Source of the DNA: Bdellovibrionota bacterium
GTDB lineage: Bacteria; Bdellovibrionota_C; UBA2361; OMII01
NCBI GenBank assembly: GCA_044356215.1
Contig: JBIKWQ010000014.1
Span: 1-50,962 of the forward strand
Direction: 5' to 3'
Length of the DNA stretch: 50,962 nt
The translations under genes were made by a program, and so were the position numbers. The notes under the pieces were generated by a model. That model saw only the letters and a program-made list of their open reading frames with translations, did no database searches and had not been told where the DNA came from. This document shows positions 15,203 to 50,810 of the stretch, one piece after another. The first letter of the stretch is position 1, and each line of letters opens with the position of its first letter.

Positions 15203-15230
15203 GACTCGACCAGAGTGATATTTTTCTTTA
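15203..15230 (-). promoter_or_regulatory. Sigma28-like promoter upstream of the HDOD-kinase operon
   Basis: TAAAG-N15-GTCGAGTC on the minus strand. Confidence 0.45.
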
Positions 15231-15418
15231 GTTGAAAGGGGCTTAGGCGAGGTTAGGCGCCAGCATGGAATGAATAATTTCAAGCTCTTACCCCTCTTCC
15301 TAATTCCAGGGTATTTGCGATAATCTCAGACGCGCAGTAATATCTCCATGTAATTGGGTTCTAATTAACGCGGCACCTCCCAAACCGCCCTAAATTTTTA
15401 GCCGCAATAAAAACACTT

Positions 15419-16759
15419 ATGGTACCGAACTTGGAAACCCTCTCTAGCTTTCACGACACCCTGGTCCTCGTTGTAGACGATGAAGCCAGCATAAGAAGCT
15501 CCCTAAGTGGGATTTTAAAGGATGAGGGAATATCTGTTATTGAAGCCGCCGATGGGGAGAGCGCGATATCGATGTTAATCGAACGCAATCCAGCACTTGT
15601 ACTACTCGATATCTGGATGCCCGGAATCGACGGATTAGAGACCCTCAAGAAGATAAAAGAGATTAGACCAAACACCCCAGTTGTAATGATTAGTGGTCAC
15701 GCTACCATCTCAACAGCGGTGGCCGCGACCAGACTTGGAGCATCCGACTTCTTAGAGAAGCCTCTAGGTCTTACATCAACGATCGAGGTGGTCCGACGCG
15801 CTCTAGAGATCGCTAAGGAACGCCAGGAGTCAACCGGACCAACATGGGAGAAGATCGAGCCCTCCTCTGTAGGTCCACTACGTCAATCACTCAACTTAAA
15901 ACCGATTGTTTTCGCCAATCAAGTAGCTCGCGGCGCGGCAAGACCTCAAAAGACTATCGCTCACGCGGCGATCCTTTACGGACAGGGATTGCACTCTGGT
16001 AGGAAGAGTGGACTGATACTAGAGCCCCTACCCGCCAACTCAGGAATTCACTTCGTTGGAGTATCAGAGACCACCACAGTACCAGCTCACGTTGATTTCG
16101 TTGAATCAACGGGATTTGCCACAACCGTCCGCTTAGGACACACACAAGCGGGAACAATCGAGCACCTGATGTCGGCACTGTGTGCCTACGGAATCTCAAA
16201 CCTTCTAATTAAATGTAACGGCGAAGTTCCAGTGATGGATGGATCGGCGAACGAGTTCTGTAAGCTTTTTGAACAGGTCGGACTAACAGAGCAGGATGGT
16301 GAGTGGTACGAAATAGCGATTAACGAGACTATTCAAGTTGGTAATGAGAAGGAATGGATCCGCATCGAGCCAGCCGATAGTTTTTCTGTTGATTATACCC
16401 TTAGGTATCCAGCTCCTGTCGGTGAGCAGCACTTTACATTTACTTTCAGCGACCCCGCGTCATTCCGCGCTGAGATCGCCCCATCGAGAACCTTTAGTTT
16501 TGTAAAAGATGTAGGCTATCTTCAGAAGCAGGGGCTAGCTTTAGGTGGCAGGTTCGATAATTTTTTACTGATCGGCACTGAAGGCGCGATTAACGACGCG
16601 TGGCGTTTTCCAAACGAGCCGGTGCGCCACAAGATCCTTGATGCTATTGGTGACCTCTATCTTTTAGGGAGACCGCTAAGAGGAAAAGTCACCGCATGCA
16701 TGACCGGCCACTCTGATAATATCGCGCTGCTTAAGAAAGTTAGAGAGTTGTTGGGGTGA
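15419..16759 (+). CDS. lpxC: Receiver domain-LpxC fusion (UDP-3-O-acyl-GlcNAc deacetylase)
   Basis: REC: VVDD, LDIWMPG, ISGH, EKP. LpxC: QKTI, G.GLHSG, TIEHLMSAL, PVMDGSA, IAPSRTF, HKILDAIGDL. Confidence 0.93.
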   Translation: MVPNLETLSSFHDTLVLVVDDEASIRSSLSGILKDEGISVIEAADGESAISMLIERNPALVLLDIWMPGIDGLETLKKIKEIRPNTPVVMISGHATISTAVAATRLGASDFLEKPLGLTSTIEVVRRALEIAKERQESTGPTWEKIEPSSVGPLRQSLNLKPIVFANQVARGAARPQKTIAHAAILYGQGLHSGRKSGLILEPLPANSGIHFVGVSETTTVPAHVDFVESTGFATTVRLGHTQAGTIEHLMSALCAYGISNLLIKCNGEVPVMDGSANEFCKLFEQVGLTEQDGEWYEIAINETIQVGNEKEWIRIEPADSFSVDYTLRYPAPVGEQHFTFTFSDPASFRAEIAPSRTFSFVKDVGYLQKQGLALGGRFDNFLLIGTEGAINDAWRFPNEPVRHKILDAIGDLYLLGRPLRGKVTACMTGHSDNIALLKKVRELLG

Positions 16760-16840
16760 TGGTGGGATTATCTGTAACTAGGGGTTACTTTCAACAGCGG
16801 TCAATCCCTGAATAGGCTTTACATGTAGTGGCCGCGCACG

Positions 16841-16931
16841 TAAACGTCGGTCGTGCTCCTGCTCGTGCACGAAAACGCGAAACGTTCACGTCGACGTTAC
16901 ACGGTGCCGTGCACGAGCAGGTGTACGTTTA
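16841..16931 (+). repeat. Family C palindromic repeat, copy 2
   Basis: CCTGCTCGTGCAC...GTGCACGAGCAGG stem, closed by TAAACGT / ACGTTTA. Confidence 0.85.
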
Positions 16932-16968
16932 CCCCCTTTCCGCCAAACACTACACCAGCCAGCCCAAA

Positions 16969-17050
16969 TTTAACGATTTTACACCGTAAATTCGTTAAAA
17001 CTATTTTTAATTTGCATTTTTTAACGAATTTTAGGATTATAATCGTTAAA
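16969..17050 (+). promoter_or_regulatory. Twin palindromic operators TTTAACGA-N15-TCGTTAAA overlapping the fic promoter
   Basis: Copies at 16969-16999 and 17020-17050; TTGCAT at 17012 and TATAAT at 17038. Confidence 0.8.
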
Positions 17051-24198: not shown

Positions 24199-25230
24199 AT
24201 GAAGCGCTTAATACTTAAAAAAATACTCCCCTGGCTTATTACGTTCGGAGCCCTCTATCTAGCTTTTAGAGGGGTAGAATGGGATCTGCTGATCGGTCAC
24301 ATTAGCAATGCAAAGCCGCTCTACATACTGGTCGCGGTCGCTCTAACAGTGGCGTCTTATTGGCTGCGCGCGCTTCGTTGGCCACTCTTATTTCCGAAGG
24401 TATCACTTCCACTCTTGTCTTCGTGGAAGGTTTTAGTCCTCGGATTTTTCATGAATAACATCCTTCCAGCTCGCGCTGGAGAGTTGGTGCGTGCTCACCT
24501 AGGAGCTAAGGTGTTGGGCGTTGCTAGAACCTTAGTATTGGCGACTATAGCCAGCGAGAGACTTGCTGACGGCCTAACAATCAGCTTGTTCTTCGTTCTA
24601 ATCGTCGGATTTATCGGTCGAGGGAGCCTCGATCCAGAGATCTCCCAGAATCTACTTTACGTTGCGTATCTCTTCGCGGCGGTAGCGATTGGAGTGATTG
24701 CTGTGCTTCTGTGCCGCGATCTAATCATAAAAAATCTTGAGCGAGTCGCTTCCAGGATAGGGAAAAGCTCATCTTCATACGCGCTATCCAGAGTTCAGAT
24801 CTTTATTGATGGGCTTAGCCCGCTTAGCAAACCCAAACGCGCGGTTAAGATCGCCGTCTGGTCGTTTGTCATTTGGGGCGTTGAACTCGTTGCTTTCGCG
24901 GCCATTTCCAAGGCTTTCGGTGGTCAGATATTTCTCTCTGGAACTGTTCTATTTTTAGTCGCAGTTAATTTTAGCTCGCTAATACCAGCGGCTCCAGGTG
25001 GTTTCGGTGTGATTGAGCTGATTGCTAAGAGCGTCTTGGTATCTGCCGGTGTCGCGACCCCGGAGTTGGCTCTCAGTATGGTTCTTACTCAGCATATAAT
25101 TCAGTACGCGGTAATCGGAATTCCAGGGGCGTTCCTGCTATCTACTTTAAGAACTCAGTTAGCTGATATGTCAGATTCTGCGAAGCAGGAGCCTGTATCC
25201 GAAGCGTCGATCTCCGCTTCAATTTCTTAG
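24199..25230 (+). CDS. Lysylphosphatidylglycerol synthase TM / UPF0104 flippase-like protein
   Basis: RALRW, NNILPARAGE, ERLAD, PAAPGGFG. Confidence 0.88.
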   Translation: MKRLILKKILPWLITFGALYLAFRGVEWDLLIGHISNAKPLYILVAVALTVASYWLRALRWPLLFPKVSLPLLSSWKVLVLGFFMNNILPARAGELVRAHLGAKVLGVARTLVLATIASERLADGLTISLFFVLIVGFIGRGSLDPEISQNLLYVAYLFAAVAIGVIAVLLCRDLIIKNLERVASRIGKSSSSYALSRVQIFIDGLSPLSKPKRAVKIAVWSFVIWGVELVAFAAISKAFGGQIFLSGTVLFLVAVNFSSLIPAAPGGFGVIELIAKSVLVSAGVATPELALSMVLTQHIIQYAVIGIPGAFLLSTLRTQLADMSDSAKQEPVSEASISASIS

Positions 25231-25926
25231 CTTCAGGATCTCAGCCCCATTAAGATATGCCTCTCGATCCGAAGCTTTAACGCTTCTTAATTGATCGATC
25301 ATTCCTGACATGCGCTGGGCATCACTCTTAATCGCGGCGACGGCGCCAACAAATTTGGGATCACTCTTCGGTAGCTGTTCAACTAGGAAGCAATTTAGCA
25401 AGATCGCTGAAAGTGGCTGCCCAAGCTGATGCGCCGCCGTTCCAGCTAGTTGTCCTACCGCGATCTGACGCTCCTGCTCTACTAACCTATCTTGCGCCCG
25501 TCGCAGCTCCTCATTAGCTACTCTAAGGTCGTGATGAAGGTCGCGAATCCGGAGCAAGGCGCTGACTCGCGCTTGAAGCTCCTCGTAATTAAACGGCTTA
25601 GTGATGTAATCATCAACACCCTCGGATAAAGCTGTAACCTTGTCCCTTACCGTGTCTCGTTCTGTTAACATCAAAACGGGTAAGAAATCTCCGACGTGCC
25701 GACTTTTAATCGACTTGCAGATCTCAAAACCGCCAAGGTCGGGCATTCCGTAGTCCAGCACCACTAGATCGAAATTTCCCCGCTCAGACTCCTCAATTGC
25801 CTCGCGACCACTCTGCACTAACACCGGGCTGTGACCCAAAACAGAGATTACACTCGCTACGATGATCCGCGATTCCGGATCGACGTCTACGATCAATATG
25901 CGTCTTTTGCGGGGCTCGGCGCTCAT
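25219..25926 (-). CDS. Response regulator: receiver, coiled coil and HisKA-like H-box, no ATPase domain
   Basis: LDYGMP, DDYITKPF, AAHQLGQPL; the protein ends about 55 aa after the His. Confidence 0.85.
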   Translation of the reverse strand: MSAEPRKRRILIVDVDPESRIIVASVISVLGHSPVLVQSGREAIEESERGNFDLVVLDYGMPDLGGFEICKSIKSRHVGDFLPVLMLTERDTVRDKVTALSEGVDDYITKPFNYEELQARVSALLRIRDLHHDLRVANEELRRAQDRLVEQERQIAVGQLAGTAAHQLGQPLSAILLNCFLVEQLPKSDPKFVGAVAAIKSDAQRMSGMIDQLRSVKASDREAYLNGAEILKLRN

Positions 25927-26010
25927 AATATCCTACGAAAGGGGGCCAAATATGTTCTGGCCCAGCTTCGTTAAGATGCCTTAGCTCTAAAAAAGGATGG
26001 TCAGCCGAGT

Positions 26011-26331
26011 CTAGCAGCTCCTAATCGTGACCTCAGAGAGTATCTCGTCGCGTAAAACAGGGTCTGTTTCCAGCAGCTCTGCGAGGAAAGCTTTCATATC
26101 AGCTTGCTCGGCAGGATCATCCTCCAAGCGACCTACAACCTGCGAGAGCAGAACCTCAATCGCCTGGTCCTCTGAATTAAAAACCTGGCACTGTACTGCA
26201 CTTTCTGGACGCTGAGCCGGAGCTGCCTGCGCGCCTCTTTCTGCGGATCTAGCTGGAGAGTTAGTAAGACGCCCCTTATACTTGACTCCTGGCTTCTCTA
26301 ACGCCTTCAAATTCGTCTTGCTCTTAACCAT
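26011..26331 (-). CDS. Hypothetical protein at the end of the T3SS-like operon
   Basis: GGAGAGGAG RBS; basic N-terminus and acidic helical C-terminus. Confidence 0.75.
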   Translation of the reverse strand: MVKSKTNLKALEKPGVKYKGRLTNSPARSAERGAQAAPAQRPESAVQCQVFNSEDQAIEVLLSQVVGRLEDDPAEQADMKAFLAELLETDPVLRDEILSEVTIRSC

Positions 26332-26409: not shown

Positions 26410-27054
26410 CTAATATTTTAGACCTCCGACTTTTGCATCTTGGTTTGAGCCAAAACCGGCTTTGGAAGCCACAGGCTGAACACTCCCCCCTCTTTCATCC
26501 ACGGAACCAAGCCCCATCAAGTTGCCTCTTACCACTGGGTGCTTAGCTATTAAAATCGCTTTCTCTAATTCGTGAATCACCTCTATTTTAGGCCGACCCA
26601 GATCATACTCAAGTGCCACCCGATTATTTCTTAACGATGCGTTATCTGGCAGCGCCTCCAACGCCTCATTATAAAGCTTCTTAGCGAGCTCCCGATTGCC
26701 GATAATATCCTGTAATAACGCAAGGTTAGCCAGAGCTTGATCGTAAGTACGGTCCATCTCATAGGCGCGGTTAAAAAGCTCTTCTGCCCTTTGAAACTCC
26801 CCCTGCAGCAACGCCACGCACCCCTGACCGTCAATAGCGGCTGCCAACCCCGCTAGCTCTTCTGCCGTTGAAAATGACGCCCTGGCCTGGTCGAATTTAC
26901 CCCCTCGAATCTGCGAGGTGCCAAGGTCAACCAGCCGCTGGGCCTCTTTATACCTAGCCACGGGGATATCGGCGGACCTAAAACACCCCGTAAGCACCTG
27001 AATGCACAGACTTAACCCTATAAATACGATGAACTTTGCCATAGTATTCCTCAT
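26410..27054 (-). CDS. TPR lipoprotein (pilotin/TadD-like)
   Basis: Lipobox VLTGC; TPR patterns (ALANLALL...A...Y..AL...PDN...NN). Confidence 0.8.
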   Translation of the reverse strand: MRNTMAKFIVFIGLSLCIQVLTGCFRSADIPVARYKEAQRLVDLGTSQIRGGKFDQARASFSTAEELAGLAAAIDGQGCVALLQGEFQRAEELFNRAYEMDRTYDQALANLALLQDIIGNRELAKKLYNEALEALPDNASLRNNRVALEYDLGRPKIEVIHELEKAILIAKHPVVRGNLMGLGSVDERGGSVQPVASKAGFGSNQDAKVGGLKY

Positions 27055-27110
27055 GCTAAATAACTACTCTTTAGGTTATCGAGACCTCGAGTTACAAAGT
27101 TGCTTAGTCG

Positions 27111-29027
27111 TCACACAATCCCTTCTAATAAAGCCCGCCTCTGCTCGTCATCTTTTAGCTCTATCTGACCACACGGCTGGAAATCGAATCTTGGAGCGAT
27201 CTCCTCATGAGCTATAACGGGGACATCCGACCACCTCGTCCGAACGACATCACGTAAGTACGCGCGTGATCGCTTCGATGTCACCAGAGCTATATCTTTA
27301 TTCTCCAGAAGTCGCTCTACCTGATCGCAGATCAGGTCAACTAATTCGCCTGACACGAGAGAGCCACTGTCTTCAGATTTCCCTAGCGCGAGATCGACAA
27401 CTGGCTCAACGACCGCCCCTTTGATGACCCTTCCCCGCGCTACAGACGCGCTTACGACAGGGGCAAGCGCCGCGCGCACCTCCGCTAAGATCTGTCGCTC
27501 TGTTAATTTATTCCCCTGCTCAGCTATCGTCTGCATCACGATATCAAGGTGGCGAGTGGTAATCCCCTCTCGAAGTAACGCTCGCAAAAGAGTGGTAATC
27601 TGAGTCAGGCTCGCTACCGATGGCACGACACCATTAACTAAATCTGGAATCTCGCGCTCCACATAATCTAATGCTCGACGCGTAGTCCCGTCATCGATCA
27701 GCTCAACTCTGTAGAGATCGATCATCCGTCGAGTTTCTATCTCAACCTCGTCCCACAACTCAGACGAAACACCCTTCTCACACCGCACGACCTCCATTCC
27801 ACGAACTAGCACTCTAAAAGCACCTTCTGGTTCGCTCCACAAACCGATCCCCGGGCGCTGCAGGACTAATCCCCACCGTGTAAATGCGTACTCACGCAAA
27901 CTCTCCATCACCTTTGAAACCTGTTCGAGGGGCGGTATCAACGCCACTAAATCCGGCGCCAATTCAATCTGAATCGATTGAGCTAATTTCGGTTCAAATG
28001 GGGCTAAGCTTACTGACGAGGCCTCTGCCTTAATAGGCTCAGGTAAAAATAAAGAAGCTATCAGAGCTATACTTACAGAGAACAGGACCAGATGTGGCAT
28101 CCCTGGCAAACATCCCAGAATAAACGCCGCCGCCCCCACAAAGGTTCTCGCGATCTTAAACTGTCCGATCTGACCAAGGAGATCCCCCGCTAGTGTCGAC
28201 GATTCATCTACTTGTACCCGAGTTACTACAAGTCCAGCCGCGACCGAATTCAGTAGCGAAGGAATCTGCGAGAGCAATCCATCACCGATTGTCAGCACCG
28301 TATATCTGCGAACCGCTACTTCGAGATCTAATTGGTGCACAAGCACGCCAACCGCTAGGCCACCAATTATATTCACCGCGGTAATTACCAACCCCGCTAT
28401 GGCGTCCCCCTTAACGAACTTCATCGCGCCATCTAGAGCCCCGTAAAATCGTGACTCCATCTGAACATCCGCTCTCTTTTTACGAGCTGCCTCTGGATCA
28501 AGGGCACCGCTGCGAATCTCCGCGTCGATCGCCATCTGTTTTCCCGGAAGAGCATCCAAGGTAAAACGTGCGGACACCTCCGCGACTCTCTCCGCCCCCT
28601 TCGCCACTACGATAAACTGAATCAAACTTATCAGTAGGAACAGAACGAAACCAACTACCACGCTGCCTTGAATAACAATTGAGCCAAACGCCTCTACTGC
28701 CTGACCAGCGTGTCCAGAACTGAGAACCGCTCGTGTGGTCGCGATGTTAAGCGAGAGCCGCCACAGCGTCGCCATCAGAAGCAACGACGGCAACGTCGCG
28801 ACTTTCAGTGGATCTCGGATATGAAGAGCGCCGATGACAAGCAGCAAGGCGAAAAGCAGATTAGAGCAGAGGAAGACATCTAAGACCGCACCTGGAAGTG
28901 GAACTATCATGCATCCGACGATCAGCATCAGACCTATCGGTACGATCAGCTCCTTTCCGTTCAGCAAGCTCATTAAGGATATCTCCGTTGGGGAAACCGG
29001 GGCGCCCGGACTTATCAACCCGAGCAC
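27111..29027 (-). CDS. sctV: FHIPEP-family export gate (SctV/FlhA-like)
   Basis: KGAERVAEVSARFTLDALPGKQMAIDAE, FYGALDGAMKFVKGDAIAG, LTIGDGL..QIP; shortened cytoplasmic domain. Confidence 0.93.
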   Translation of the reverse strand: MLGLISPGAPVSPTEISLMSLLNGKELIVPIGLMLIVGCMIVPLPGAVLDVFLCSNLLFALLLVIGALHIRDPLKVATLPSLLLMATLWRLSLNIATTRAVLSSGHAGQAVEAFGSIVIQGSVVVGFVLFLLISLIQFIVVAKGAERVAEVSARFTLDALPGKQMAIDAEIRSGALDPEAARKKRADVQMESRFYGALDGAMKFVKGDAIAGLVITAVNIIGGLAVGVLVHQLDLEVAVRRYTVLTIGDGLLSQIPSLLNSVAAGLVVTRVQVDESSTLAGDLLGQIGQFKIARTFVGAAAFILGCLPGMPHLVLFSVSIALIASLFLPEPIKAEASSVSLAPFEPKLAQSIQIELAPDLVALIPPLEQVSKVMESLREYAFTRWGLVLQRPGIGLWSEPEGAFRVLVRGMEVVRCEKGVSSELWDEVEIETRRMIDLYRVELIDDGTTRRALDYVEREIPDLVNGVVPSVASLTQITTLLRALLREGITTRHLDIVMQTIAEQGNKLTERQILAEVRAALAPVVSASVARGRVIKGAVVEPVVDLALGKSEDSGSLVSGELVDLICDQVERLLENKDIALVTSKRSRAYLRDVVRTRWSDVPVIAHEEIAPRFDFQPCGQIELKDDEQRRALLEGIV

Positions 29028-29047: not shown

Positions 29048-29353
29048 CTATCCAACGCGCATATTTCTAATCGGCGCCATCTCAGTCTCATGTTGGGATT
29101 TAGATACGTTTGAGGCCATCGAAATGATCTGCATCTCACGCTGAATCTGAATCTGCATATTAAGAAGCTGAGTTAACTCAGCGCTGTTACTACCCAGCAT
29201 TGATCCCACGGCGTCCATGCCTGTATCAACGACTGCCTCTCCCCACTGCGCCAAGGAACTGCGAGGCTCTGGTAATGCTCTGGCGAGTACGGATCCTCCA
29301 ATATTAAGGCCAAGCCCAGTTAACATCGGTGTAATAGATATTGGTGAAGACAT
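29048..29353 (-). CDS. Small T3SS filament/rod-like protein (SctF/SctI/HrpA-like)
   Basis: 101 aa, GGAGG RBS; C-terminal helical hairpin LL.MQ..IQRE....SMASNVSKSQHETEMAPIRNMR resembling T3SS needle/rod/pilin ends. Confidence 0.6.
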   Translation of the reverse strand: MSSPISITPMLTGLGLNIGGSVLARALPEPRSSLAQWGEAVVDTGMDAVGSMLGSNSAELTQLLNMQIQIQREMQIISMASNVSKSQHETEMAPIRNMRVG

Positions 29354-29378
29354 CTTGATTCCTCCAAATAAATAGAAA

Positions 29379-29406
29379 TTATCGGGACACTGTAAGTAGA
29401 AGTTGC
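29379..29406 (-). promoter_or_regulatory. Sigma28-like internal promoter for the filament-like gene
   Basis: GCAAC-N15-CCCGATAA on the minus strand (7/8 match to GCCGATAA). Confidence 0.6.
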
Positions 29407-29434
29407 TGGATAGAAAGTCTCCTACGGAGACCAA

Positions 29435-36929: not shown

Positions 36930-37594
36930 GTCGAACAGATAGCTCACAAACTCACGCAATTAGTGTTGAGCCAACGGGGGTCTTTAATAACCCTACTCCG
37001 CCAGCCAACGAGATTGGCGCGGTGATCATAGAATTTATTCTTGTAATCCCAATCCTGCTTACTATCCTCGGTTATTCGCTGCGGCTAACTCAGATACTTC
37101 AGGCTAATCAGATAGCCATGGTTATAAGTCGAGAAGCGGCTACTGAGGCGTTTCGATTGTGCACCGACCTAACAATTCAGCTCCCATCATGCGATGCGTC
37201 GGCGAACGTGTGCGTAGACGCGGTTAAGACTAAAGCAGCAACCGAGTACTGCCTAGGAAAAATCAAGGAGAAGTACGAGGCTCTCTGGCCAATTGCTAAG
37301 CCATCGGCGAGCTCTAGCGACTCCGCTCCTACCATCGACGTAGAGGTCTATCGCTATGACCTAGGAAGTTTCGTGACCTTGAATAATTGTATTGGCGATG
37401 AGAGCAAGGTTTCACGATTCACAACAATAACATCATCACAACCATACCAGATAAGCGCTGCTGCTTTATGCGTAAGAAACCGCGTATCACGCGCGAAGAT
37501 ATCATTTAAAATTAAACCGACATCGGCATTCCTCAATCTTTCCGGGGGTGTCGCTGATTCAGATTTAACTGTAGTAGACGAGACGATGCTGTGA
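36926..37594 (+). CDS. TadE/TadF-family pseudopilin
   Basis: G|AVIIEFILVIP and SREAA; ATGA overlap with the upstream gene. Confidence 0.85.
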   Translation: MSRTDSSQTHAISVEPTGVFNNPTPPANEIGAVIIEFILVIPILLTILGYSLRLTQILQANQIAMVISREAATEAFRLCTDLTIQLPSCDASANVCVDAVKTKAATEYCLGKIKEKYEALWPIAKPSASSSDSAPTIDVEVYRYDLGSFVTLNNCIGDESKVSRFTTITSSQPYQISAAALCVRNRVSRAKISFKIKPTSAFLNLSGGVADSDLTVVDETML

Positions 37595-40167
37595 CTATGA
37601 GAGATAAAGCAGGAAAAATAGAAGCCGGTGTTATCTTAATCGTTTTTGTAATGACCATTCCCTGCTTACTGGGGCTGATGGCGCTCGCGATCGATTCTGG
37701 TAACCTTTATCTCGCGAAGCTGCGCCTCACAAAAGTAGCTAGGATCTCGTCCGCGACAGCGCTCAACATGATGGCGCTACGTGGCTGGGGAGCGATGGTC
37801 GCCGATCCTTTATCCTCTCCTGATGATCTGAATTTAGGGCTTAAAACCGCCAATTTAGATTACTCGAATCCAGATGATACTCTGGCTAATCAAGCGGTGC
37901 TCAAAGAGATGCGAAACGCCGCGATAGAAGCTTTAAAGAAGTATTACCCTGCGTCTGATTTTGCAGTAAATAATCCTGACGACCCTATGGCTCTGCCCGA
38001 GTATTTGCAATACGTAAGATACTCGGACGACGGGGCAACCGCCATGAATTCTCTGCCTTTAAGCGCACTAGACCTCCTTGATTCAAGCATAAAGGCCTCA
38101 TTTAGGTACTCAGCAAAAACTTACCTTTTAGGCGCGATATCTCAGATCCTTGGTGGCACTGGCCCATGCTCTAAATCAGAATCCGATTCGTCTGCAAGAT
38201 GTTGGGTCGAAAGCTCGTCACCACCAGATCGCAAGACTGGCAAGATGCGGCCGGCGAATGTCTTTATGCTACTCGATGTCTCTGGATCAATGAATGAGAT
38301 GGTATCTGAGAACAGCACAAAAACTAAAAAGACAGCTCTGGATGAGGCAGCCGCGACGTTTATAGACATGTTTAATCCTCTAAGTGATAAGTTCTCCATC
38401 ATTCCGTACGCCACCACCGCTGATAATGGCGATGATCCGGTTATGCCAGCGGTGCTTATTACCCCGAGCCCGCCAGGTATTCCGGACTATCTTGAAGATA
38501 AGTATAAGATCAGAAATCAAGACCGGTTCAAAGTGGGTGGGCAGACTAATCCTTGCGACGCACTACTGCAGGTCGCGAGAGCGATTCAAGCGGATACTTC
38601 CACAAAAGATCCTTTATATGACCACAAGACGCCCAAATTTGTCTTACTATTCACGGACGGAGCCCCAAACGTCTACCGCCTAGAGTTTTGCAAAGACGGC
38701 GACTGTCAACGGAATCCGACACTGATAGATGCCGCTTTAACAAAAGGTGGCGCGAACACCTCGGATGACCGTGGATGGTATGGTTGGACGGTTAAATGGG
38801 ATAAGAGGTCTGTTTTCAGGATGGGCCCGGCGAGCGGAGTACAAGACGATTTCTGCGGGTCAAACGAATTCGACATCGATCCGGATAGACCTAGCATCTC
38901 TCGCTGCGATCCGGTCTGGGCTTTCCCCAGAGTAATTAAAAATGACCAACAGGAGTTAACATACTCGGAAGTCTCCTCCAATCTACGCCTGAATGAGGAT
39001 GGGGAGTTCTATTTTATTGACGGAGAGTATGCGGGAAACACTATTTCTCAACTGGGCTTTAGTCTCAAATTTGAGGATCAGAGCACCACAACCCTACGGG
39101 ACTATCAGAGGTCGGACGCCTACCGCTGGAATGGGCCGAGTTACCTTACTCACGCGAGCTTTATAATTCCTCGGGGGCTCTCGCTAACCGATCGATTACC
39201 ACGGATTCTTGATGTTCCAAATGGAAGAGCCCCAATAACGTGCGGCCCAGGTTCCCGCTCCACGCCTCAGGAATATCCAGGATCTCTGATAACAAAGGCT
39301 CCCCGCGTAGCCGATAAATACAACCACTCGCTCTACTTCGCCTCGAGAGCCATCGACGCGAATTGGAGAACCGAGGGTAACGTTACTGATGAGAGTGGAG
39401 GCAAGGCATCAAAGGTCGCCCTAAGTCAGGACCACCTTAAAAATGCCCCAGCCTACTTCGAGAAACCACACGTCCTACGTCCGCATCCAGACGACTCCCC
39501 TGGATGCTTAACAGACTTAACGGCTAAGATTCCTTTCTCCTCATCCGCGAATATCTATCTGGGAGCTAACTTCGTATCAAACCCGGAGGAAACTATTCAC
39601 ACCAGAGGAGAAGCGTTAAAAACAGCGGAGCTTCCATACCACTGCGCGCTTCGAGCGGCGGATTGGCTAAGATCAGAGTATAATGTTGTAATATTCGTTG
39701 TTGGCTTAGGCCCTAGCGCCACTTCCATATACGATCAAAGTGAGGACACGCCATGCGAGGATCCACTGCAAAACGCGCTAGATCCGAATAGTCGTAAGGA
39801 TCGTTTCCTGAGAAGATTAGCTCTCGCCCCAGAGTCTCTTAGCGATCCAGAGCAGTTCTTAAAGGATTCATCAAACGAAGATGTTAGTTGGTCACCAACG
39901 AGTGATTTCAGATTTCGTCGTAACGTTTCTCTTTCCAACTGCGTTAATCATCCCCTCGCTGGATTAGCGGTCGAGCTGGGATACAGCGAGGCTTATAGTG
40001 AGTCTATGTTCTCAAATGTCGCGACTGGCCCATTTGGATACTCGCCCAGCGATCATAAATTCACAAAATACCACCTGGGAGGATACTACGGAGCTGAAGA
40101 TCCCGCCCAGCTAAAGATGATCTTTGGAGAGATCGCCAAGCGGATCCTGCTGCGCTTATCTTCATGA
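37591..40167 (+). CDS. TadG-like protein with a vWA domain and a large insertion
   Basis: G|VILIVF..LAIDSG Tad N-terminus; MIDAS DVSGS, GQTN, LFTDG, IFVVGLG. Confidence 0.85.
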   Translation: MTMRDKAGKIEAGVILIVFVMTIPCLLGLMALAIDSGNLYLAKLRLTKVARISSATALNMMALRGWGAMVADPLSSPDDLNLGLKTANLDYSNPDDTLANQAVLKEMRNAAIEALKKYYPASDFAVNNPDDPMALPEYLQYVRYSDDGATAMNSLPLSALDLLDSSIKASFRYSAKTYLLGAISQILGGTGPCSKSESDSSARCWVESSSPPDRKTGKMRPANVFMLLDVSGSMNEMVSENSTKTKKTALDEAAATFIDMFNPLSDKFSIIPYATTADNGDDPVMPAVLITPSPPGIPDYLEDKYKIRNQDRFKVGGQTNPCDALLQVARAIQADTSTKDPLYDHKTPKFVLLFTDGAPNVYRLEFCKDGDCQRNPTLIDAALTKGGANTSDDRGWYGWTVKWDKRSVFRMGPASGVQDDFCGSNEFDIDPDRPSISRCDPVWAFPRVIKNDQQELTYSEVSSNLRLNEDGEFYFIDGEYAGNTISQLGFSLKFEDQSTTTLRDYQRSDAYRWNGPSYLTHASFIIPRGLSLTDRLPRILDVPNGRAPITCGPGSRSTPQEYPGSLITKAPRVADKYNHSLYFASRAIDANWRTEGNVTDESGGKASKVALSQDHLKNAPAYFEKPHVLRPHPDDSPGCLTDLTAKIPFSSSANIYLGANFVSNPEETIHTRGEALKTAELPYHCALRAADWLRSEYNVVIFVVGLGPSATSIYDQSEDTPCEDPLQNALDPNSRKDRFLRRLALAPESLSDPEQFLKDSSNEDVSWSPTSDFRFRRNVSLSNCVNHPLAGLAVELGYSEAYSESMFSNVATGPFGYSPSDHKFTKYHLGGYYGAEDPAQLKMIFGEIAKRILLRLSS

Positions 40168-47715: not shown

Positions 47716-47743
47716 TAAAGTTTTGAGAAATTTAGGCCGTAGT
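47716..47743 (+). promoter_or_regulatory. Sigma28-like promoter upstream of the subtilase
   Basis: TAAAG(TTT)-N15-GCCGTAGT. Confidence 0.55.
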
Positions 47744-47748
47744 ACCAG

Positions 47749-50700
47749 GTGATGAGGTATAGTTGGAACGGACCCAGGCTGGTCTCCTTAGTAGTAGCCG
47801 TCCTGGTCACAGCACTGCTTAGCTTAATACGCGAATGCGCTGCGGATAGCTGGGTGTATCCCGGAGCTATCATTAGCGTTAGGGGTAAATCCTCGGCATT
47901 TAGCACTGTTGATTCCGGATTGGCTACTGTCAAACCCGCAAACATGACCACTGAAAGAATCGCTCGCGGTGTTACGCTGCTTCAGGATCGCCCTAAGAAA
48001 AGCAAACCAAGTTCAGCGAACCTTCGGATTTACAATCGAAAAAACGATCCATGCAACCGGGCTACCGTTCGCCGTGTACTGAAAAAGATCCGAGGGCACG
48101 CTACCTGCTCACCAAATAGCGCCGTTTTCGCCAGCGCTGTTCCAAACGACCCAGACTATTCCTCATTGTACGCGCCCGTCACCATGGATCTCCCTCTCTG
48201 TTGGGACATTACTGTCGGCAGCCCGAACGCTTTAGTAATGATCGTCGATACGGGGGTCCAGTACACCCATCCAGATTTAATAGCTAATATCTGGTCTAAC
48301 CCGGGAGAAACCGCGGGCAACGGAATAGACGATGATAACAATGGATATATTGACGATGTCCACGGGATCAACGCGATCACTAACGTCGGAGACCCAGCGG
48401 ACGATAACGGTCACGGTACTCACGTAGCCGGTATTATCGGCGCCAAAGGTAATAACGGCGTTGGCGCTACGGGTGTTAACTGGACCGTTAAAATGATCGC
48501 CGCAAAGTTCCTAGCGAGCAACGGCTCCGGTTCAATAGCTAATGCGATAAAAGCGATCGATTACGGCACCAACCTGCGACTCGCTGGATATCCTGTTATA
48601 GTGAGCAACAACTCATGGGGTGGACAGATTACCAACATCTCTACCAGAGCCGCGCTGCAATCAGCGATCCAGAGCGCCATGAACGCTGGGATCCTATTTG
48701 TCGCCGCCGCGGGCAACCTCTCTACAAATATTGATTCTTCTCCTTCTTATCCCGCTAGCTTCAACCTGGCGAATCTGATTACGGTCGCCTCAACTGACTC
48801 GAGCAACAACCTATCAAGCTTCTCAAACTACGGGGCTCAAAGTGTGCACATAGCGGCTCCTGGTAGCTCGATATACAGCACATACCTGGCGAGTACATAC
48901 TCGACCCTAAACGGAACCTCGATGGCAGCTCCGCAGGTATCAGGCATAGCGGCTCTAGCCGCCGCGGCATGTGGCAATACCCTAACTTACGACCAGATTC
49001 GAGCTCTCATACTAAACAATGGAACTATTCACAGCAATCTAAGCGCCTCTGTCAGTACGTCAGCCGTAGCCAATGCTTACGGAGCAGTTACAGCAGCTTT
49101 AACCGCGTGTCCGACCCCAAGCGCAGGTGCAACAGCGACCCCTACAAGCACAAGGACACCGACAGCGACGCCTACCTATACTTTTACTCCAACCAGAACC
49201 CCAACCCCAACAGTCACTCCAACACCTAGCCCTTCTCCAACATACACACCCACCAACACTCCAGGTTTCTCTCTGTCATTGCCTTCTAGCGGTGGCTCTT
49301 CTAACTCAGGCTGCTGCGATCCAAACCTGTGCAGAAGTAGAAGTTGCAAAAACGCGTGCTTAGCTTGCTTAGCGAGGCCACCTGCGACCACACCATCAGC
49401 GGGAGGTGCGCCAACTCCCGTTGTCATCAATCCACCCCCTTTAAACGGACCTTGCTGCCTCTACTGCACCAGCAGGACCTGCAGACGCTCATGCACATAC
49501 GCGAACTGCTATCCAGCCACCGTAACTCCAACTAGCACACCAACAATGAGCCCGACCGCTACCCCTACTTGGGTGGTTGATTGGCGAAACGATCCAGCAC
49601 GCTCACTTACCATCTTTGTATCTTCCGTTGATTTCGATGCCACTCAATCCTACAACGGCATACAGGGTGGCCTCGGAGCGGCGCGCGAGTTCTGTCAGAT
49701 CCGCGCCGCCGCTGCTGGGTTAGCCGACACAGGCAGACAGTGGTTCCCATTAATGTCGAGCTCAACATACGACGCCCAGGAAGTGACAGGTGCATTGCCG
49801 TCATCGGCCACGATATTTAATACTCACGGCGAAGTGGTGGCTCTCTCTCGTGAGCACCTATGGGATCGGAGCGCTCCTCTATCAAACGCGGTGCGCTACG
49901 ATGAGTTTGAGCAGGTAAGCGCCGAAACCAGCGCCGCCACTGGCAGCTTATCGACAGGAATAAAAGTATCGTCAGATTCGACTAACATGTGTCTCGATTG
50001 GAGTTCACGTAACGCGGCGTATAATTATATCCGCACGGGAAACCCAGCGCTAGTTGATTCCGAATGGTTCGCTAAGAGCGAAACGTTATCGTGCGCAGGC
50101 ACATATCCGATTTATTGTATCGGATATTCATCAAGAACCCCTCTTGAAATCCCCACAAATACTCCAACGGCGTCAGCTACTCCAACTGTATCGCCTACAC
50201 CAACAGCATCAGATACACCAACCGTGACCGTTACGCCTACCGCTACTCCAACACATACTCATTCAAATACGCCGACTGATACTCCAACACAAACACCGAC
50301 TAATACTCCAACTGATACCCCTACAGCATCTCCGACACCTACTTTCACCTTAACTCATACACCTACAGATACGCCGACGGATACCCCAACCCCAACCGAT
50401 ACTCCTACGCCTTCTCCAACACCAACTATTACTCCTACTTACACCTCCACAGATACCCCGACTATTACTCCGACAGCGACAGATACACCAACAGATTCAC
50501 CTACTCCTACCGCCACCGATACTCCTACAGTGTCACCGACCGCTACTGAGACTCCAACCGTTACGCCAACTAACACACCTACAATTACTCCAACAAGCAC
50601 TCCGATTCCGCCAACTCATACACCCACAGATACGCCAACTCCTACAGCTACCCCTACTATCACGAACACGCCGACCCCTACCAATACCCCAATCACAGGC

Positions 50701-50763
50701 GCAGTCTGCTGCTCATTCTGCTTAAGCAAAACTTGCAGAAGAACGTGCAATCCGGCGTGCTAG
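47749..50763 (+). CDS. Secreted S8 subtilase with Pro/Thr linkers, a DUF1554-like domain and three Cys-rich modules
   Basis: Signal peptide; [11 protein letters not shown] and GTSMAAP catalytic triad; IFVS..G..GGL..A..FC...AAAAGL domain; long TP repeats. Confidence 0.9.
50152..50697 (+). repeat. Degenerate coding tandem repeat (TPTxTPT)
   Basis: Long run of ACN-CCN codons; a shorter block occurs at about 49110-49263. Confidence 0.9.
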
Positions 50764-50783
50764 CCAGCAACTAAATCTATCCA

Positions 50784-50810
50784 TTTAGATTTTCCGTGAT
50801 CTGCCGATAA
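50784..50810 (+). promoter_or_regulatory. Possible sigma28 promoter pointing out of the window
   Basis: TTTAG-N14-GCCGATAA (perfect -10 box). Confidence 0.45.

What the first reader, a model, noticed from the sequence alone, without database searches (positions are those of the whole stretch)
15203..50810. Putative sigma28-like regulon linking a reduced T3SS, Tad pseudopilins, a secreted protease and a signalling operon
Seen: five intergenic sites share the geometry NNAA(G/C)-N15-N(C/T)CG, each oriented towards a gene start. They are TAAAG..GTCGAG (HDOD/kinase, 15230-15203), GCAAC..CCCGATAA (filament-like gene, 29406-29379), GCAAC..ATCGAT (sigma gene, 32400-32373), TTAAG..GCCGATTA (Tad operon, 36351-36378) and TAAAG..GCCGTAG (subtilase, 47716-47743); a sixth with N14 spacing lies at 50784-50810. 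Known: the FliA consensus is TAAA-N15-GCCGATAA, and in Myxococcus xanthus a Tad-like Kil apparatus works with an atypical T3SS in contact-dependent prey killing. Inference: the T3SS-linked FliA-like sigma has been repurposed to co-express a T3SS, Tad pilus and protease programme, possibly for predation or host attack. The motif is short and was found by eye.
Basis: partly seen in the sequence, partly recalled or inferred. Interest (0 to 1): 0.9.

Follow-up and report, generated by a model that had tools for sequence, protein, structure and literature searches.

The report
Two sigma-28-type promoter classes, not one
The six look-alike sites belong to two different promoter families: the ordinary flagellar sigma-28 type, and a new type tied to a second sigma-28-like factor that appears to switch on a needle-less secretion machine together with DNA-uptake genes.

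Summary
The geometry that unites them is chance-level: 117 matches in the window against 111.5 expected.

They split into two real promoter classes, each enriched at one spacing only in non-coding DNA genome-wide.

Class A (T[ACT]AAG-N15-GCCGA) is the canonical sigma-28 box. The genome has a bona fide fliA elsewhere, plus flagellins. Class A precedes flagellin, flgM, fliS and chemotaxis genes. In the window it plausibly serves the Tad-like operon and the subtilase. This matches published Bdellovibrio biology. The HDOD site is unsupported and the sixth site is uncertain.

Class B (GCAACTT-N14/15-CGAT, about 75 sites) is new. It precedes:
- the window's own FliA-paralog sigma gene, the only one of 11 sigma genes so marked;
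- a 101-residue gene, which carries the best class B site in the genome;
- every dispersed part of the second, T3SS-like export apparatus;
- a competence set (dprA, ssb, comEC, comM, radC, comF, pilB, pilC, a pilin).

The boxes are conserved upstream of orthologs across many families.

I read class B as the regulon of the paralog sigma (about 65%). The single-regulon interpretation is only partly supported.

The parts
32371..32401 (-). Class B promoter-like box (CGCAACTTTT...TATCGATTGGT) about 50 nt before the sigma gene ATG (32319)
   Evidence: matrix score 21.9-22.3. It is the only one of 11 sigma-family genes with a class B box within 300 nt upstream. The same kind of box lies upstream of the sigma ortholog in 20 of 25 related loci.
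29377..29407 (-). Class B box (AGCAACTTCT...TCCCGATAATT) 23 nt before the ATG (29353) of the 101-aa gene
   Evidence: It scores 26.0, the highest class B score in the whole genome. A box of this kind lies upstream of the ortholog in 15 of 16 loci that hold the gene.
27074..27104 (-).
   Evidence: score 21.9-22.4. It is present at the same place in 2 (L021, L023) of the 15 related loci that hold the TPR gene.
31643..31672 (-). Candidate internal class B box inside the 3' end of the sigma gene, about 20 nt before the longest SctJ-like ORF start (31622)
   Evidence: score 18.5. The same string type occurs in 11 of 25 related loci. It overlaps the codons for the conserved LPEKERII of sigma region 4, so its conservation may be a coding constraint.
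31489..32319 (-). FliA/WhiG-like sigma factor paralog (276 aa)
   Evidence: Sigma70_r2 and r4 domains. FliA_WhiG 108.2 bits, below the 189.6 cut-off. Best solved relatives are WhiG and FliA, at E about 1e-19. The recognition helix SKSW[VIM][SA][RK][LIV][HR] (SKSW strictly invariant) is kept in all 26 family members, against TESRASQIRS in this genome's canonical FliA.
30672..31622 (-). SctJ-like inner-membrane ring lipoprotein gene (start uncertain)
   Evidence: YscJ_FliF 54.3 bits. TIGR02544 SctJ 87.1 bits against FliF 22.2.
30287..30712 (-). 141-aa gene of unknown family inside the cluster
   Evidence: No Pfam or NCBIfam match. Weakly conserved, found by tblastn in L021 only.
29472..30308 (-). 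SctQ/FliN-like gene (278 aa)
   Evidence: FliMN_C 37.5 bits. SpaO_YscQ 33.5 bits, below cut-off.
29048..29353 (-).
   Evidence: 17 orthologs with a C-terminal ...SN.EKS.HET.MA.[VI]RN[IM]R.[GAS]. No Pfam match and no solved-structure sequence match. The AF2 model is two helices at pLDDT 62. No Foldseek match.
27111..29027 (-). SctV/FlhA-like export gate gene (638 aa), one of three FHIPEP genes in the genome
   Evidence: FHIPEP 483 bits. hrcV 445 against FlhA 435 bits, both below cut-off. The other two copies lie on C131 and on C71/C123.
26410..27054 (-). TPR protein gene (214 aa), syntenic with the cluster
25219..26331 (-). 106-aa gene and receiver-HisKA gene that follow the cluster in relatives too
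   Evidence: p106 in 7 loci, RR-HisKA in 3 loci.
36350..36380 (+). Class A (sigma-28 type) box TTAAG-N15-GCCGATTA, about 30 nt before the ATG at 36408 of the Tad-like operon
   Evidence: It belongs to the pattern class with 25 non-coding hits at N15 against 2-6 at other spacers. Matrix score 12.9-13.1, a zone where about half of hits are chance. A class A box lies at the same place in 3 of 6 orthologous operons, plus one TTAAG-N15-GACGAC variant.
36384..40167 (+). Three-gene operon: two weak TadE-like genes and a VWA (TadG-like) gene
   Evidence: TadE at E 0.0028 and 0.0011, both below Pfam's cut-off. VWA_2 26.6 bits against a cut-off of 27.
47716..47743 (+). Class A variant box TAAAG-N15-GCCGTAG, ending 8 nt before the ATG at 47752 of the subtilase gene (near-leaderless)
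   Evidence: T[ACT]AAG-N15-GCCGTA has 5 non-coding hits at N15 against 0-3 at other spacers. The two closest orthologs carry TTTAG-N15-[AG]CCGACGT at the same distance from their ATG. Of the four other related subtilase upstream regions, 2 score 16.3 and 18.9. A paralog on C100 scores 19.1.
47749..50763 (+). Subtilase gene (1004 aa), one of 8 paralogs in the genome
   Evidence: Peptidase_S8 169 bits. Eight matches in the own genome.
50784..50810 (+). TTTAG-N14-GCCGATAA: perfect -10, off-spacing -35; target gene unknown
   Evidence: N14 is not enriched. It is followed by a hairpin and a repeat that also opens contig C113, and the contig ends at 50962.
15203..15230 (-). TAAAG-N15-GTCGAG before the HDOD/PAS-kinase operon: not supported as a sigma-28-type site
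   Evidence: The variant is not enriched. Matrix score 7.8. None of 24 orthologous upstream regions holds a class A (>=7) or class B (>=10) box.

Best explanation
The window holds promoters of two sigma-28-family regulons.

Class A (T[ACT]AAG-N15-GCCGA/GCCGTA) is read by the canonical flagellar FliA, which is encoded on another contig. In this predatory-type lineage it drives late flagellar genes and also non-flagellar genes. In the window those are, plausibly, the Tad-like minor-pilin operon and the subtilase.

That sigma keeps the sigma-28-like region 2 and so keeps a CGA-centred -10. It has an invariant changed recognition helix in region 4.2 and so has a new -35. It transcribes its own gene, which gives positive autoregulation. 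It also transcribes the strongly boxed 101-aa gene and all operons of a second, dispersed export apparatus with SctJ, Q, V, L, N, R and U parts. The same box precedes a natural-competence set (dprA, ssb, comEC, comM/yifB, radC, comF, pilB, pilC, a pilin) and many mobile-element genes.

Shown here: the two motif classes, their enrichment, their target gene sets and their conservation. Inferred: which sigma reads which class, and that the boxes fire.
For: Genome context. A canonical FliA exists (243.8 bits, over the cut-off), against 108 bits for the window's sigma. There are six flagellin-family genes and three FHIPEP genes.

Class A.
- In non-coding DNA, consensus matches with at most 1 mismatch number 7 at N15 and 0 at N14 and N16.
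- T[ACT]AAG-Nx-GCCGA gives 25 at N15 against 2-6 at other spacers.
- The matrix gives 32 sites at score >=16 at N15, against 2-7 at eight other spacers.
- Of 40 downstream genes scanned, the hits include flagellin, two FlgM, FliS, a CheA-like kinase, receiver proteins, a second subtilase, RcpC and the PP2C gene of a Tad locus.
- In B. bacteriovorus, TTAAG-N16-CCGATA sits in 92 of 140 attack-phase promoters, including proteases (PMC3627812, passages). The Tad operon promoter there responds to FliA in an E. coli reporter (PMC5430801, passages).

Class B.
- CAACT-Nx-CGAT in non-coding DNA gives 13 and 23 at N15 and N16, against 0-5 at 14 other spacers.
- GCAACTT-Nx-CGAT in the whole genome gives 13 and 19, against 0-2.
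- The matrix gives 28+47 sites at score >=16, against 1-5 per control spacer.
- Of those 75 sites, 70 have a same-strand ORF starting within 300 nt, at a median distance of 42 nt.
- Only the window's sigma, 1 of 11 sigma genes, has a class B box upstream.
- Boxes precede every T3SS-like operon found: three in the window, FliH plus the SctN-type ATPase on C9, and the FliP operon and FlhB C-terminal piece on C99.
- The synteny sigma-SctJ-...-101aa-SctV-TPR holds in 25 loci from more than 20 families. Boxes lie upstream of sigma in 20 of 25 and upstream of the 101-aa gene in 15 of 16.
- A box lies upstream of dprA in 20 of 29 order-level loci, against 17 hits in 190 kb elsewhere in those loci.
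- The recognition helix signature (SKSW invariant) is kept in all 26 orthologs, against TESRASQIRS in FliA. Region 2 RIRGAxxD is kept.
- The nearest solved relatives of the sigma are WhiG and FliA.
- The base after CG in the -10 is A, as in sigma-28 boxes (matrix).
Against: No transcript data exist. No RNA run was listed for this DNA, so no start site is mapped.

The sigma-to-class-B assignment rests on autoregulation-type placement, co-conservation and a changed recognition helix. None of these excludes another sigma.

The class B layout (AAC ... CG at 16-17 nt) also resembles ECF-type promoters as I recall them, and the genome has about five ECF-like sigmas.

A phylogenetic profile has no power here. 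Every genome of the phylum that I examined seems to carry the cluster, down to 26% sigma identity. The exact-pattern counts in relatives (genus mean 19.2 against control 2.7; class-level relatives 6.5 against 2.5) are confounded by kinship and by GAAAC variants that the pattern misses.

The class A matrix was trained on pattern-selected sites and cannot see GCCGT variants. It finds boxes upstream of only 2 of 6 flagellin-family genes.

The Tad site scores only about 13, and 2 of 6 orthologous operons show no box at all.

My gene calls are a simple longest-ORF caller, and 'non-coding' includes the first 90 nt of ORFs. Some class B sites are copies upstream of repeated transposase genes.
Confidence: 0.65

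Rival explanations
1. Class B is read by a different sigma. This could be one of the ECF-like sigmas, or the canonical FliA helped by an activator. The T3SS-linked sigma gene would then be only one more target, a step in a cascade, with a still unknown promoter specificity of its own.
For: The AAC...CG layout at 16-17 nt resembles ECF promoters (recalled). The genome has five or so ECF-like sigma genes. No direct binding or transcription evidence exists.
Against: None of the other 10 sigma genes has a class B box upstream, although ECF sigmas are usually autoregulated. The -10 core is CGA[TA], not CGT. The paralog's recognition helix is invariant over the same lineages in which the -35 is invariant. 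Six boxes drive exactly the apparatus that the sigma gene is embedded in.
Confidence: 0.2
2. One reading: one sigma-28-like regulon, run by the T3SS-linked sigma, co-expresses the T3SS, the Tad pseudopilins, the protease and the HDOD signalling operon.
For: Both classes share AA in the -35 and CGA in the -10 at the same distance. Sigma-28 paralogs could overlap in specificity.
Against: The shared geometry is at chance level. A canonical FliA and flagellins exist. The Tad and subtilase sites carry the box found at flagellin, flgM and fliS. The class B sites score 2.7 and -7.5 on the class A matrix. The HDOD site is unsupported.
Confidence: 0.07
3. Class B boxes are not promoters. They would be a binding site of a transcription factor, or part of a dispersed repeat.
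For: A few sites are identical copies in front of repeated RAYT/IS-type genes. No start sites are mapped.
Against: It has a strict orientation towards genes and a median of 42 nt to the start codon. Its positions are conserved upstream of orthologs while the spacer sequence drifts. It has no dyad symmetry.
Confidence: 0.05

Closest known systems
FliA (sigma-28) attack-phase regulon of Bdellovibrio bacteriovorus (Karunker et al. 2013, PMC3627812; Avidan et al. 2017, PMC5430801)
   Same: Class A has the same box (TTAAG-N16-CCGATA there). It has the same breadth: flagellar genes plus proteases, surface proteins and a Tad operon. The window's Tad-like and subtilase sites fit this pattern.
   Different: It is a different, uncultured lineage, titled 'Bdellovibrionota bacterium' in the record titles of relatives. 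Nothing here is tested by expression. The T3SS-like cluster is not part of this regulon.
Sigma-28 / FliA-WhiG family sigma factors (TIGR02479; solved: E. coli FliA 6pmi, WhiG 6pfv)
   Same: The window's sigma has regions 2 and 4. Its best solved relatives are WhiG and FliA. It keeps RIRGAxxD in region 2, and its presumed -10 keeps the CGA core.
   Different: It scores 108 bits against a cut-off of 189.6. The recognition helix reads SKSWVSRLH instead of TESRASQIRS, and the DWLPRS stretch of FliA is replaced. The presumed -35 is G[CA]AACTT instead of TAAAG. It is not linked to flagellar genes.
Needle-less T3SS* of Myxococcus xanthus working with the Tad-like Kil system (review PMC12428579, passages)
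   Same: This is also a non-flagellar, reduced T3SS-like apparatus in a predatory-type deltaproteobacterial relative. The genome also has a Tad locus with FHA, Ser/Thr kinase and PP2C genes, beside a third FHIPEP gene.
   Different: The review says Kil plus T3SS* co-occurrence appears restricted to Cystobacterinae. Here the T3SS-like genes are dispersed over three contigs and have their own sigma. Their box is shared with competence genes, while the Tad loci carry the class A box. No orthology to the Myxococcus genes was tested.
ComX (sigma-X) late-competence regulon of streptococci (Slager et al. 2019, PMC6560143, passages)
   Same: An alternative sigma box precedes dprA, ssb, comEC, comF, radC and pilus genes. 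The -10-like core there (..TTMCGAATA..) resembles class B -10 variants such as TCGAATAAT and CCGAACATA.
   Different: ComX is not a sigma-28-family protein, and no homology is claimed. The organism here is Gram-negative. No -35 element is described for ComX in the passages read. Competence itself is untested.
TfoX-dependent co-regulation of a killing device (T6SS) with DNA uptake in Vibrio cholerae
   Same: The logic is shared: a contact-dependent secretion machine and the DNA-uptake machinery lie in one regulon.
   Different: The machine differs (T3SS-like here) and so does the regulator type (a sigma factor, not TfoX/QstR). Killing by this apparatus is pure conjecture.

Membership tests
Sigma-28 (FliA)-dependent promoter, class A | Bipartite TAAA(G)-N15-GCCGATAA-like box with a fixed spacer, enriched at that spacer only | tested here: met
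   As a class, non-coding matches number 25 at N15 against 2-6 elsewhere, and 32 against 2-7 at matrix score >=16. Per site: 36351 fits (score about 13). 47716 fits the GCCGTA variant (5 against 0-3). 15230 (GTCGA variant, 6 against 1-8) and 50784 (N14) do not fit.
Sigma-28 (FliA)-dependent promoter, class A | A cognate FliA is encoded, and the same box precedes late flagellar genes | tested here: met
   FliA at C123 scores 243.8 bits, over the cut-off. Boxes precede a flagellin, two flgM, fliS and a CheA-like gene among the 40 targets scanned.
Sigma-28 (FliA)-dependent promoter, class A | Box conserved upstream of orthologs of the window's genes | tested here: inconclusive
   Tad-like operon: 3 of 6, plus 1 variant. 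Subtilase: 2 of 2 closest orthologs carry a TTTAG variant, and 2 of 4 further relatives carry class A. HDOD: 0 of 24.
Sigma-28 (FliA)-dependent promoter, class A | Transcription start a few nt after the -10, dependent on FliA | not testable with these tools
   No RNA run was listed for this DNA.
FliA/WhiG sigma family (TIGR02479), for the window's sigma | Score over the curated cut-off | tested here: not met
   108.2 bits against a cut-off of 189.6; 108.1 bits in the genome-wide search.
FliA/WhiG sigma family (TIGR02479), for the window's sigma | Nearest relatives among characterised sigmas are sigma-28 proteins; regions 2 and 4 are present | tested here: met
   Sigma70_r2 and r4 are present. 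The best solved hits are WhiG (6pfv, 7e-20) and FliA (6pmi, 5e-19).
FliA/WhiG sigma family (TIGR02479), for the window's sigma | FliA-type region 4.2 recognition helix (..ESR.SQ..) | tested here: not met
   SKSWVSRLH in the window; the SKSW core is strictly invariant in all 26 orthologs and later positions vary conservatively. This genome's FliA reads TESRASQIRS.
[quoted passage not shown] | Export apparatus and sorting parts: SctV, SctJ, SctQ, SctN, SctL, SctR, SctU, separate from the flagellar set | tested here: met
   SctV, SctJ and SctQ lie in the window. FliH-like plus a FliI/YscN-family ATPase (457.5 bits, cut-off 379.5) lie on C9. A second FliP and a split FlhB lie on C99. The flagellar set lies on C71, C123 and C29. 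SctS and SctT were not looked for.
[quoted passage not shown] | Secretin (SctC), needle (SctF) and translocators | not tested
   No search for a secretin was run. The 101-aa protein has no detectable family. Its C-terminus reminded me of needle proteins, but that is recollection, not a test.
Competence (late com-type) sigma regulon | One sigma-type box in front of the DNA-uptake and processing genes | tested here: met
   Class B boxes precede DprA (221 bits, over cut-off), SSB, RadC, YifB/ComM (all over cut-off), ComEC N-terminal domain, ComF/GntX-like, PilB-like, PilC-like and a pilin gene. At dprA the box is kept in 20 of 29 order-level loci.
Competence (late com-type) sigma regulon | The organism is naturally transformable and the sigma is needed for it | not testable with these tools
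   The lineage is uncultured and known only from assemblies.

The most novel reading that the evidence does not exclude
An uncharacterised sigma-28 paralog family, now auto-annotated as flagellar FliA, is the master switch of a 'contact, lyse and take up DNA' programme in an uncultured Bdellovibrionota-like phylum. It would fire a needle-less T3SS-like machine, type IV pilus genes, ComEC/DprA/SSB/ComM/RadC and single-strand-specific transposases from one new promoter type. This would be a sigma-driven competence regulon in a Gram-negative lineage, coupled to a secretion device as T6SS is coupled to competence in Vibrio. The T3SS-like export gate might also gate the sigma itself, in a FlgM-like logic.
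Probability: 0.3. Interest if true: 0.85.

Novelty: new variant of a known kind. Interest (0 to 1): 0.72.

Why it matters
The class A part is ordinary. It extends to an uncultured lineage what is published for Bdellovibrio, where FliA acts as a broad regulator that includes a Tad operon and proteases.

The class B part is not in the papers I could search. It offers four things.
- A second sigma-28-family factor with an invariant altered recognition helix and a matching new -35. This gives a clean, directly testable sigma-promoter pair.
- A regulon that joins a reduced T3SS-like apparatus with the core natural-transformation genes. If confirmed, this would be a sigma-controlled competence programme outside the Firmicutes.
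- A hint at what needle-less T3SS-like machines are used for.
- A correction of annotation: 411 metagenomic proteins match at E <= 1e-20, and many of the 120 listed are labelled 'sigma factor for flagellar operon FliA'.

Tried and rejected

(2) Mismatch counting to the E. coli consensus is informative only at 0-1 mismatch. At 2 mismatches N15 (24) equals N14 and N16 (18, 25).

I rewrote it in vectorised form.

(4) A phylogenetic profile of sigma ortholog against class B pattern counts could not be used as a test. I found no clear negative genomes, and the cluster reaches class-level relatives at 26% identity. The exact pattern also misses GAAAC lineages.

(5) I looked for covariation between GCAAC/GAAAC and the recognition helix and found none. 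Both forms occur within one locus, and the helix is invariant.

(6) The 101-aa protein stays unassigned. It has no Pfam or NCBIfam match even at E 5. A profile search of solved structures gave only E > 1 noise. The AF2 model has pLDDT 62. Foldseek against PDB gave nothing at E <= 0.001.

(7) Complex prediction for the paralog sigma with the 101-aa protein, to probe a FlgM-like anti-sigma idea, returned no verdict (score 0.02, mark 0.32). It counts neither for nor against.

(8) For RNA evidence, no RNA holder was listed for window 26000-32600.

(9) The first window pattern for class B used the wrong spacer and found 0 matches. The corrected pattern found 3.

(10) Two alignment calls failed on rows with an in-frame stop. 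I dropped those two rows (L022, L108), so alignment A2 holds 23 of the 25 sequences.

(11) Literature searches: 'Bdellovibrionota' + 'type III secretion' (13 papers, 9 listed); competence + alternative sigma + dprA + comEC (93 papers, 12 listed, all Firmicutes or reviews); Bdellovibrio + natural transformation + comEC + dprA. No listed title or abstract start described such a sigma or regulon, and I read none of those papers in full. Supplementary tables of PMC3627812 (promoter lists) were not opened.

Full report
WHAT IS IN THE WINDOW

The window is the whole of contig C70 of a 3.24-Mb, 131-contig assembly with 49.5% G+C.

The minus strand between 25.2 and 32.3 kb carries these genes in order:
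- a FliA/WhiG-like sigma (31489-32319)
- an SctJ-like ring lipoprotein
- a 141-aa unknown
- an SctQ/FliN-like gene
- a 101-aa unknown with likely ATG at 29353
- an SctV/FlhA-like gate
- a TPR protein
- a 106-aa unknown
- a receiver-HisKA protein

Further right lie housekeeping genes (hemB, bioB-like, queF). After them comes a three-gene operon of two weak TadE-like proteins and a VWA protein (36384-40167). Heme-synthesis genes and serS follow, and then a 1004-aa subtilase (47749-50763). To the left lies an HDOD/PAS-kinase operon (12957-15154).

Record titles of the closest relatives call them Bdellovibrionota MAGs.

THE OBSERVATION

All six strings are present as described. The degenerate geometry that was said to unite them carries about 10 bits (my own arithmetic). 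It matches 117 times in the window against 111.5 +/- 11 in shuffles. Twelve of those matches lie in the 3.76 kb of non-coding DNA. As stated, the shared pattern is therefore chance.

THE GENOME HAS A SEPARATE FLAGELLAR SYSTEM

- TIGR02479 finds a canonical FliA on C123 at 243.8 bits (cut-off 189.6). It lies just after the 3' half of a flhA that is split between contigs C71 and C123. The window's sigma scores 108.
- There are six flagellin-family genes.
- There are three FHIPEP genes, three FliP-like genes, two FlhB sets of which one is split, and two FliI/YscN-family ATPases over the cut-off.

TWO PROMOTER CLASSES

I called ORFs with a simple longest-ORF routine. I took as 'non-coding' everything outside ORFs plus their first 90 nt, which gives 613 kb per strand. 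Other spacer lengths served as the internal control.

Class A:
- TAAAG-Nx-CCGA gives 16 hits at x=16 against 0-6 at 15 other spacers.
- T[ACT]AAG-Nx-GCCGA gives 25 at N15 against 2-6.
- Consensus matches with at most 1 mismatch give 7 at N15, and 0 at N14 and N16.
- A matrix trained without the window gives 32 sites at score >=16 against 2-7 at other spacers, and 61 at >=14 against 11-24.

Class B:
- CAACT-Nx-CGAT gives 13 and 23 at x=15 and 16 against 0-5.
- GCAACTT-Nx-CGAT over the whole genome gives 13 and 19 against 0-2.
- The matrix gives 28+47 sites at score >=16 against 1-5 per control spacer.
- At >=14 there are 91 sites after removing overlaps.
CCGAACA[TA] is a common -10 variant.
- Of the 75 sites at >=16, 70 have a same-strand ORF of at least 40 aa starting within 300 nt, at a median of 42 nt.

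In the window, GCAACT-N15/16-CGAT occurs three times against 0.25 expected, and 0 of 100 shuffles reach 3.

WHICH OF THE SIX SITES BELONGS WHERE

- Sites 29406 and 32400 are class B, with scores 26.0 (the genome's best) and 22.3. On the class A matrix they score 2.7 and -7.5.
- Site 36351 (Tad-like operon) fits the enriched class A pattern and the published Bdellovibrio consensus. Its matrix score is only about 13, a zone with about half noise. Orthologous operons carry a class A box at the same place in 3 of 6 cases. A fourth has TTAAG-N15-GACGAC.
- Site 47716 (subtilase) has GCCGTA. My matrix cannot score that variant, because its training pattern demanded CCGA. T[ACT]AAG-N15-GCCGTA is itself enriched: 5 against 0-3.
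  - By eye the same variant precedes two flagellin genes, in the sequences (one is scored 10.6).
  - The two closest subtilase orthologs carry TTTAG-N15-[AG]CCGACGT at the same 8-9 nt from their ATG.
  - Two of four further relatives score 16.3 and 18.9.
  - A paralog on C100 scores 19.1.
  - The mRNA would be nearly leaderless.
- Site 15230 (HDOD) is in the GTCGA variant, which is not enriched: 6 against 1-8. It scores 7.8. None of 24 orthologous upstream regions has a box. A GTCGA[GC] string recurs in about ten of those regions without a TAAAG partner, so it belongs to something else.
- Site 50784 has a perfect -10 but N14 spacing, which is not enriched. It is followed by a hairpin and a repeat that also opens contig C113, and the contig ends there, so its target is unknown.

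WHAT THE TWO CLASSES DRIVE

Class A. I scanned 40 of the 47 downstream ORFs of at least 60 aa at score >=14. Seven lower-ranked or short ORFs were left out. The scanned set holds:
- a flagellin, two FlgM, FliS and a CheA-like kinase
- three receiver proteins
- a hybrid kinase and a cNMP-binding protein
- a second subtilase and an FG-GAP protein
- RcpC of a Tad locus
- the PP2C gene that heads a Tad locus with FHA, Ser/Thr kinase, TadZ-like, RcpC, TadA, TadB and TadC, next to the third FHIPEP gene
- several housekeeping genes that are probably noise

This is the profile published for B. bacteriovorus. There, TTAAG-N16-CCGATA marks 92 of 140 attack-phase promoters, including proteases and surface proteins (PMC3627812, abstract and passages). 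The Tad operon promoter there responds to FliA in an E. coli reporter (PMC5430801, abstract and passages).

Class B. I scanned 59 of the 62 ORFs of at least 60 aa at score >=16 outside the window. Three short ORFs were left out for room. The scanned set holds:
- DprA (221 bits, over cut-off), SSB, RadC and YifB/ComM (all over cut-off)
- a ComEC N-terminal domain protein and a ComF/GntX-like protein
- PilB-like and PilC-like proteins and an N-methyl pilin
- an SNF2 helicase
- FliH followed by the second FliI/YscN ATPase (C9)
- the 88-aa FlhB C-terminal piece (C99)
- a PAS kinase, a receiver-kinase, an M48 peptidase and a weak Pesticin/lysozyme-like protein
- many mobile-element genes: four ORF6N, four RAYT-like and one IS200-like Y1 transposase, an IS91 piece, an integrase, HipA, HicB, SocA, Gp49 and Bro-N

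A further box at C99:17588-17618 heads the operon with the second FliP and the FlhB N-terminal part. All T3SS-like operons that I could find therefore sit behind class B boxes. So does the core natural-transformation set.

CONSERVATION

Five related MAG loci with sigma at 53-61% identity all have the box upstream of sigma. The two loci that reach far enough also have it before the 101-aa gene and before the TPR gene.

I then took 20 more loci from other families of the order and one from another family of the class. The synteny sigma-SctJ-...-101aa-SctV-TPR(-106aa-RR/HisKA) holds throughout.

A loose pattern, [CA]AAC[TC]-N15/16-CGA, has about 0.03 expected per 250 nt. It lies upstream of sigma in 20 of 25 loci. 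One more is weak and four have none. It lies upstream of the 101-aa gene in 15 of 16 loci.

The -35 is GCAAC or GAAAC, and both can occur within one locus.

Upstream of dprA, 20 of 29 order-level loci have a class B box at score >=12, within 11.5 kb of upstream windows. Elsewhere in those loci there are 17 hits in 190 kb. The three same-genus loci are among the nine without a box.

The exact pattern GCAACTT-N14/15-CGAT is frequent in the 34 same-genus genomes: mean 19.2, against 2.7 for the reversed-pattern control. In 33 class-level relatives the means are 6.5 and 2.5. Kinship and the GAAAC variant make this only descriptive.

WHO READS CLASS B

Among 11 sigma-family genes, only the window's sigma has a class B box within 300 nt upstream. 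None has a class A box at score >=11.

The paralog family keeps RIRGAxxD in region 2. It carries the region 4.2 signature SKSW[VIM][SA][RK][LIV][HR] (SKSW strictly invariant) in all 26 sequences, down to 26% overall identity. This genome's FliA has TESRASQIRS there, and solved FliA proteins have ESR.SQ. As I recall sigma-70 structures, these are the positions that touch the -35.

The FliA stretch DWLPRS after region 2 is also replaced. This fits the loss of the GC preference before CGA, but that is inference.

A changed helix with a changed -35, a kept region 2 with a kept CGA core, a self-placed box, and six boxes on the very apparatus the gene sits in make the paralog the most economical reader. 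I put this at about 65%.

An ECF-type or other sigma remains possible at about 20%. The single-regulon reading stands at about 7%.

THE T3SS-LIKE APPARATUS AND THE 101-AA PROTEIN

SctJ rather than FliF (87 against 22 bits) argues for a non-flagellar type. SctV and the ATPase score equally well on flagellar and injectisome models. I did not search for a secretin or for SctS/SctT.

The 101-aa protein is conserved. Its invariant positions are L63, Q67, Q71, N82, H88, E89, M92, R96, N97 and R99. It has no detectable family. Its function is open: needle or rod-like, substrate, or regulator.

NOVELTY

Class A is already known in kind.

For class B and the paralog sigma, three literature searches turned up nothing. 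The sigma-driven competence regulons listed there are in Firmicutes. The review of contact-dependent predation places needle-less T3SS* with Kil only in Cystobacterinae. Relatives of the sigma number 411 at E <= 1e-20. All come from assemblies, and many are auto-named flagellar FliA.

I class it as a new variant of a known kind: a sigma-28-family paralog with new specificity and an unexpected regulon.

LIMITS

- There is no expression evidence.
- Gene calls are home-made.
- Matrices were trained on pattern-selected sites.
- Related genomes are not independent.
- Supplementary promoter tables of the Bdellovibrio papers were not read.

Noticed in passing
G000 contig C99:10413-14703 (locus L088): The second FlhB/SctU is split. 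A 260-aa N-terminal membrane part (13921-14703) and an 88-aa C-terminal part (10413-10679) are separated by a 1042-aa GAF/PAS histidine kinase gene. The C-terminal piece has its own class B box.
   Followed up: partly
G000 contig C131:10249-22325 (locus L089): A third, full-length FHIPEP gene (701 aa, 581 bits) lies directly beside a Tad locus (TadB, TadC, TadA-like, RcpC, ParA/TadZ-like) with Ser/Thr kinase, FHA and PP2C genes. The locus is headed by a class A box. The layout recalls the Myxococcus Kil system.
   Followed up: partly
G000 C45:32013-32207 and C117:1147-1509: There are two FlgM-like anti-sigma-28 genes (64 and 120 aa), both behind class A boxes. With two sigma-28-family factors in the genome, one FlgM might serve the paralog.
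   Followed up: no
window 31643-31672 (-): A class B-scoring string (18.5) lies inside the sigma gene's region 4 codons (LPEKERII), about 20 nt before the SctJ-like ORF start. It recurs in 11 of 25 related loci. It could be an internal promoter or only a coding constraint.
   Followed up: partly
G000 C37:35650, C80:46839, C101:317, C9:44597, C21:17880, C101:22947: Several REP-associated tyrosine transposase-like (RAYT) genes and an IS200-like Y1 transposase carry class B boxes. These enzymes act on single-stranded DNA, and here they sit in the same presumed regulon as the DNA-uptake genes.
   Followed up: partly
window 50811-50962 and G000 C113:1-120: The window ends in a hairpin plus a repeat that also opens contig C113, which continues into another subtilase paralog at C113:358. 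It is probably a MITE-like element that broke the assembly.
   Followed up: partly
window 36384-40167: The Tad-like operon encodes three proteins: two TadE-like and one VWA/TadG-like. The number and kind match the three-minor-pilin 'Tips' described for the Myxococcus Kil pilus in review PMC12428579.
   Followed up: no
window 32440-32462 and G000 C54:12615-12645: The string AAAATAGCCGATTCAGCGATGC upstream of the sigma gene recurs on contig C54. It is a short dispersed repeat of unknown meaning.
   Followed up: no
window 15419-16759: An LpxC deacetylase domain is fused to an N-terminal response-regulator receiver (446 aa). This is an unusual architecture for the committed step of lipid A synthesis.
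   Followed up: no
HDOD ortholog upstream regions (L203, L205, L206, L209-L211, L213-L216) and window 15203-15215: A GTCGA[GC] string with conserved flanks (TGTCGAGTAGTTACG or TGTCGACCCCTGTAC) recurs 60-110 nt before HDOD orthologs without a sigma-28-type -35. It is possibly another promoter type or a leader element.
   Followed up: no
G000 whole genome: GCAACT-N10-CGAT also shows a peak: 24 whole-genome matches and 7 non-coding, against 5-9 and 0-2 at neighbouring spacers. It may reflect a repeat.
   Followed up: no
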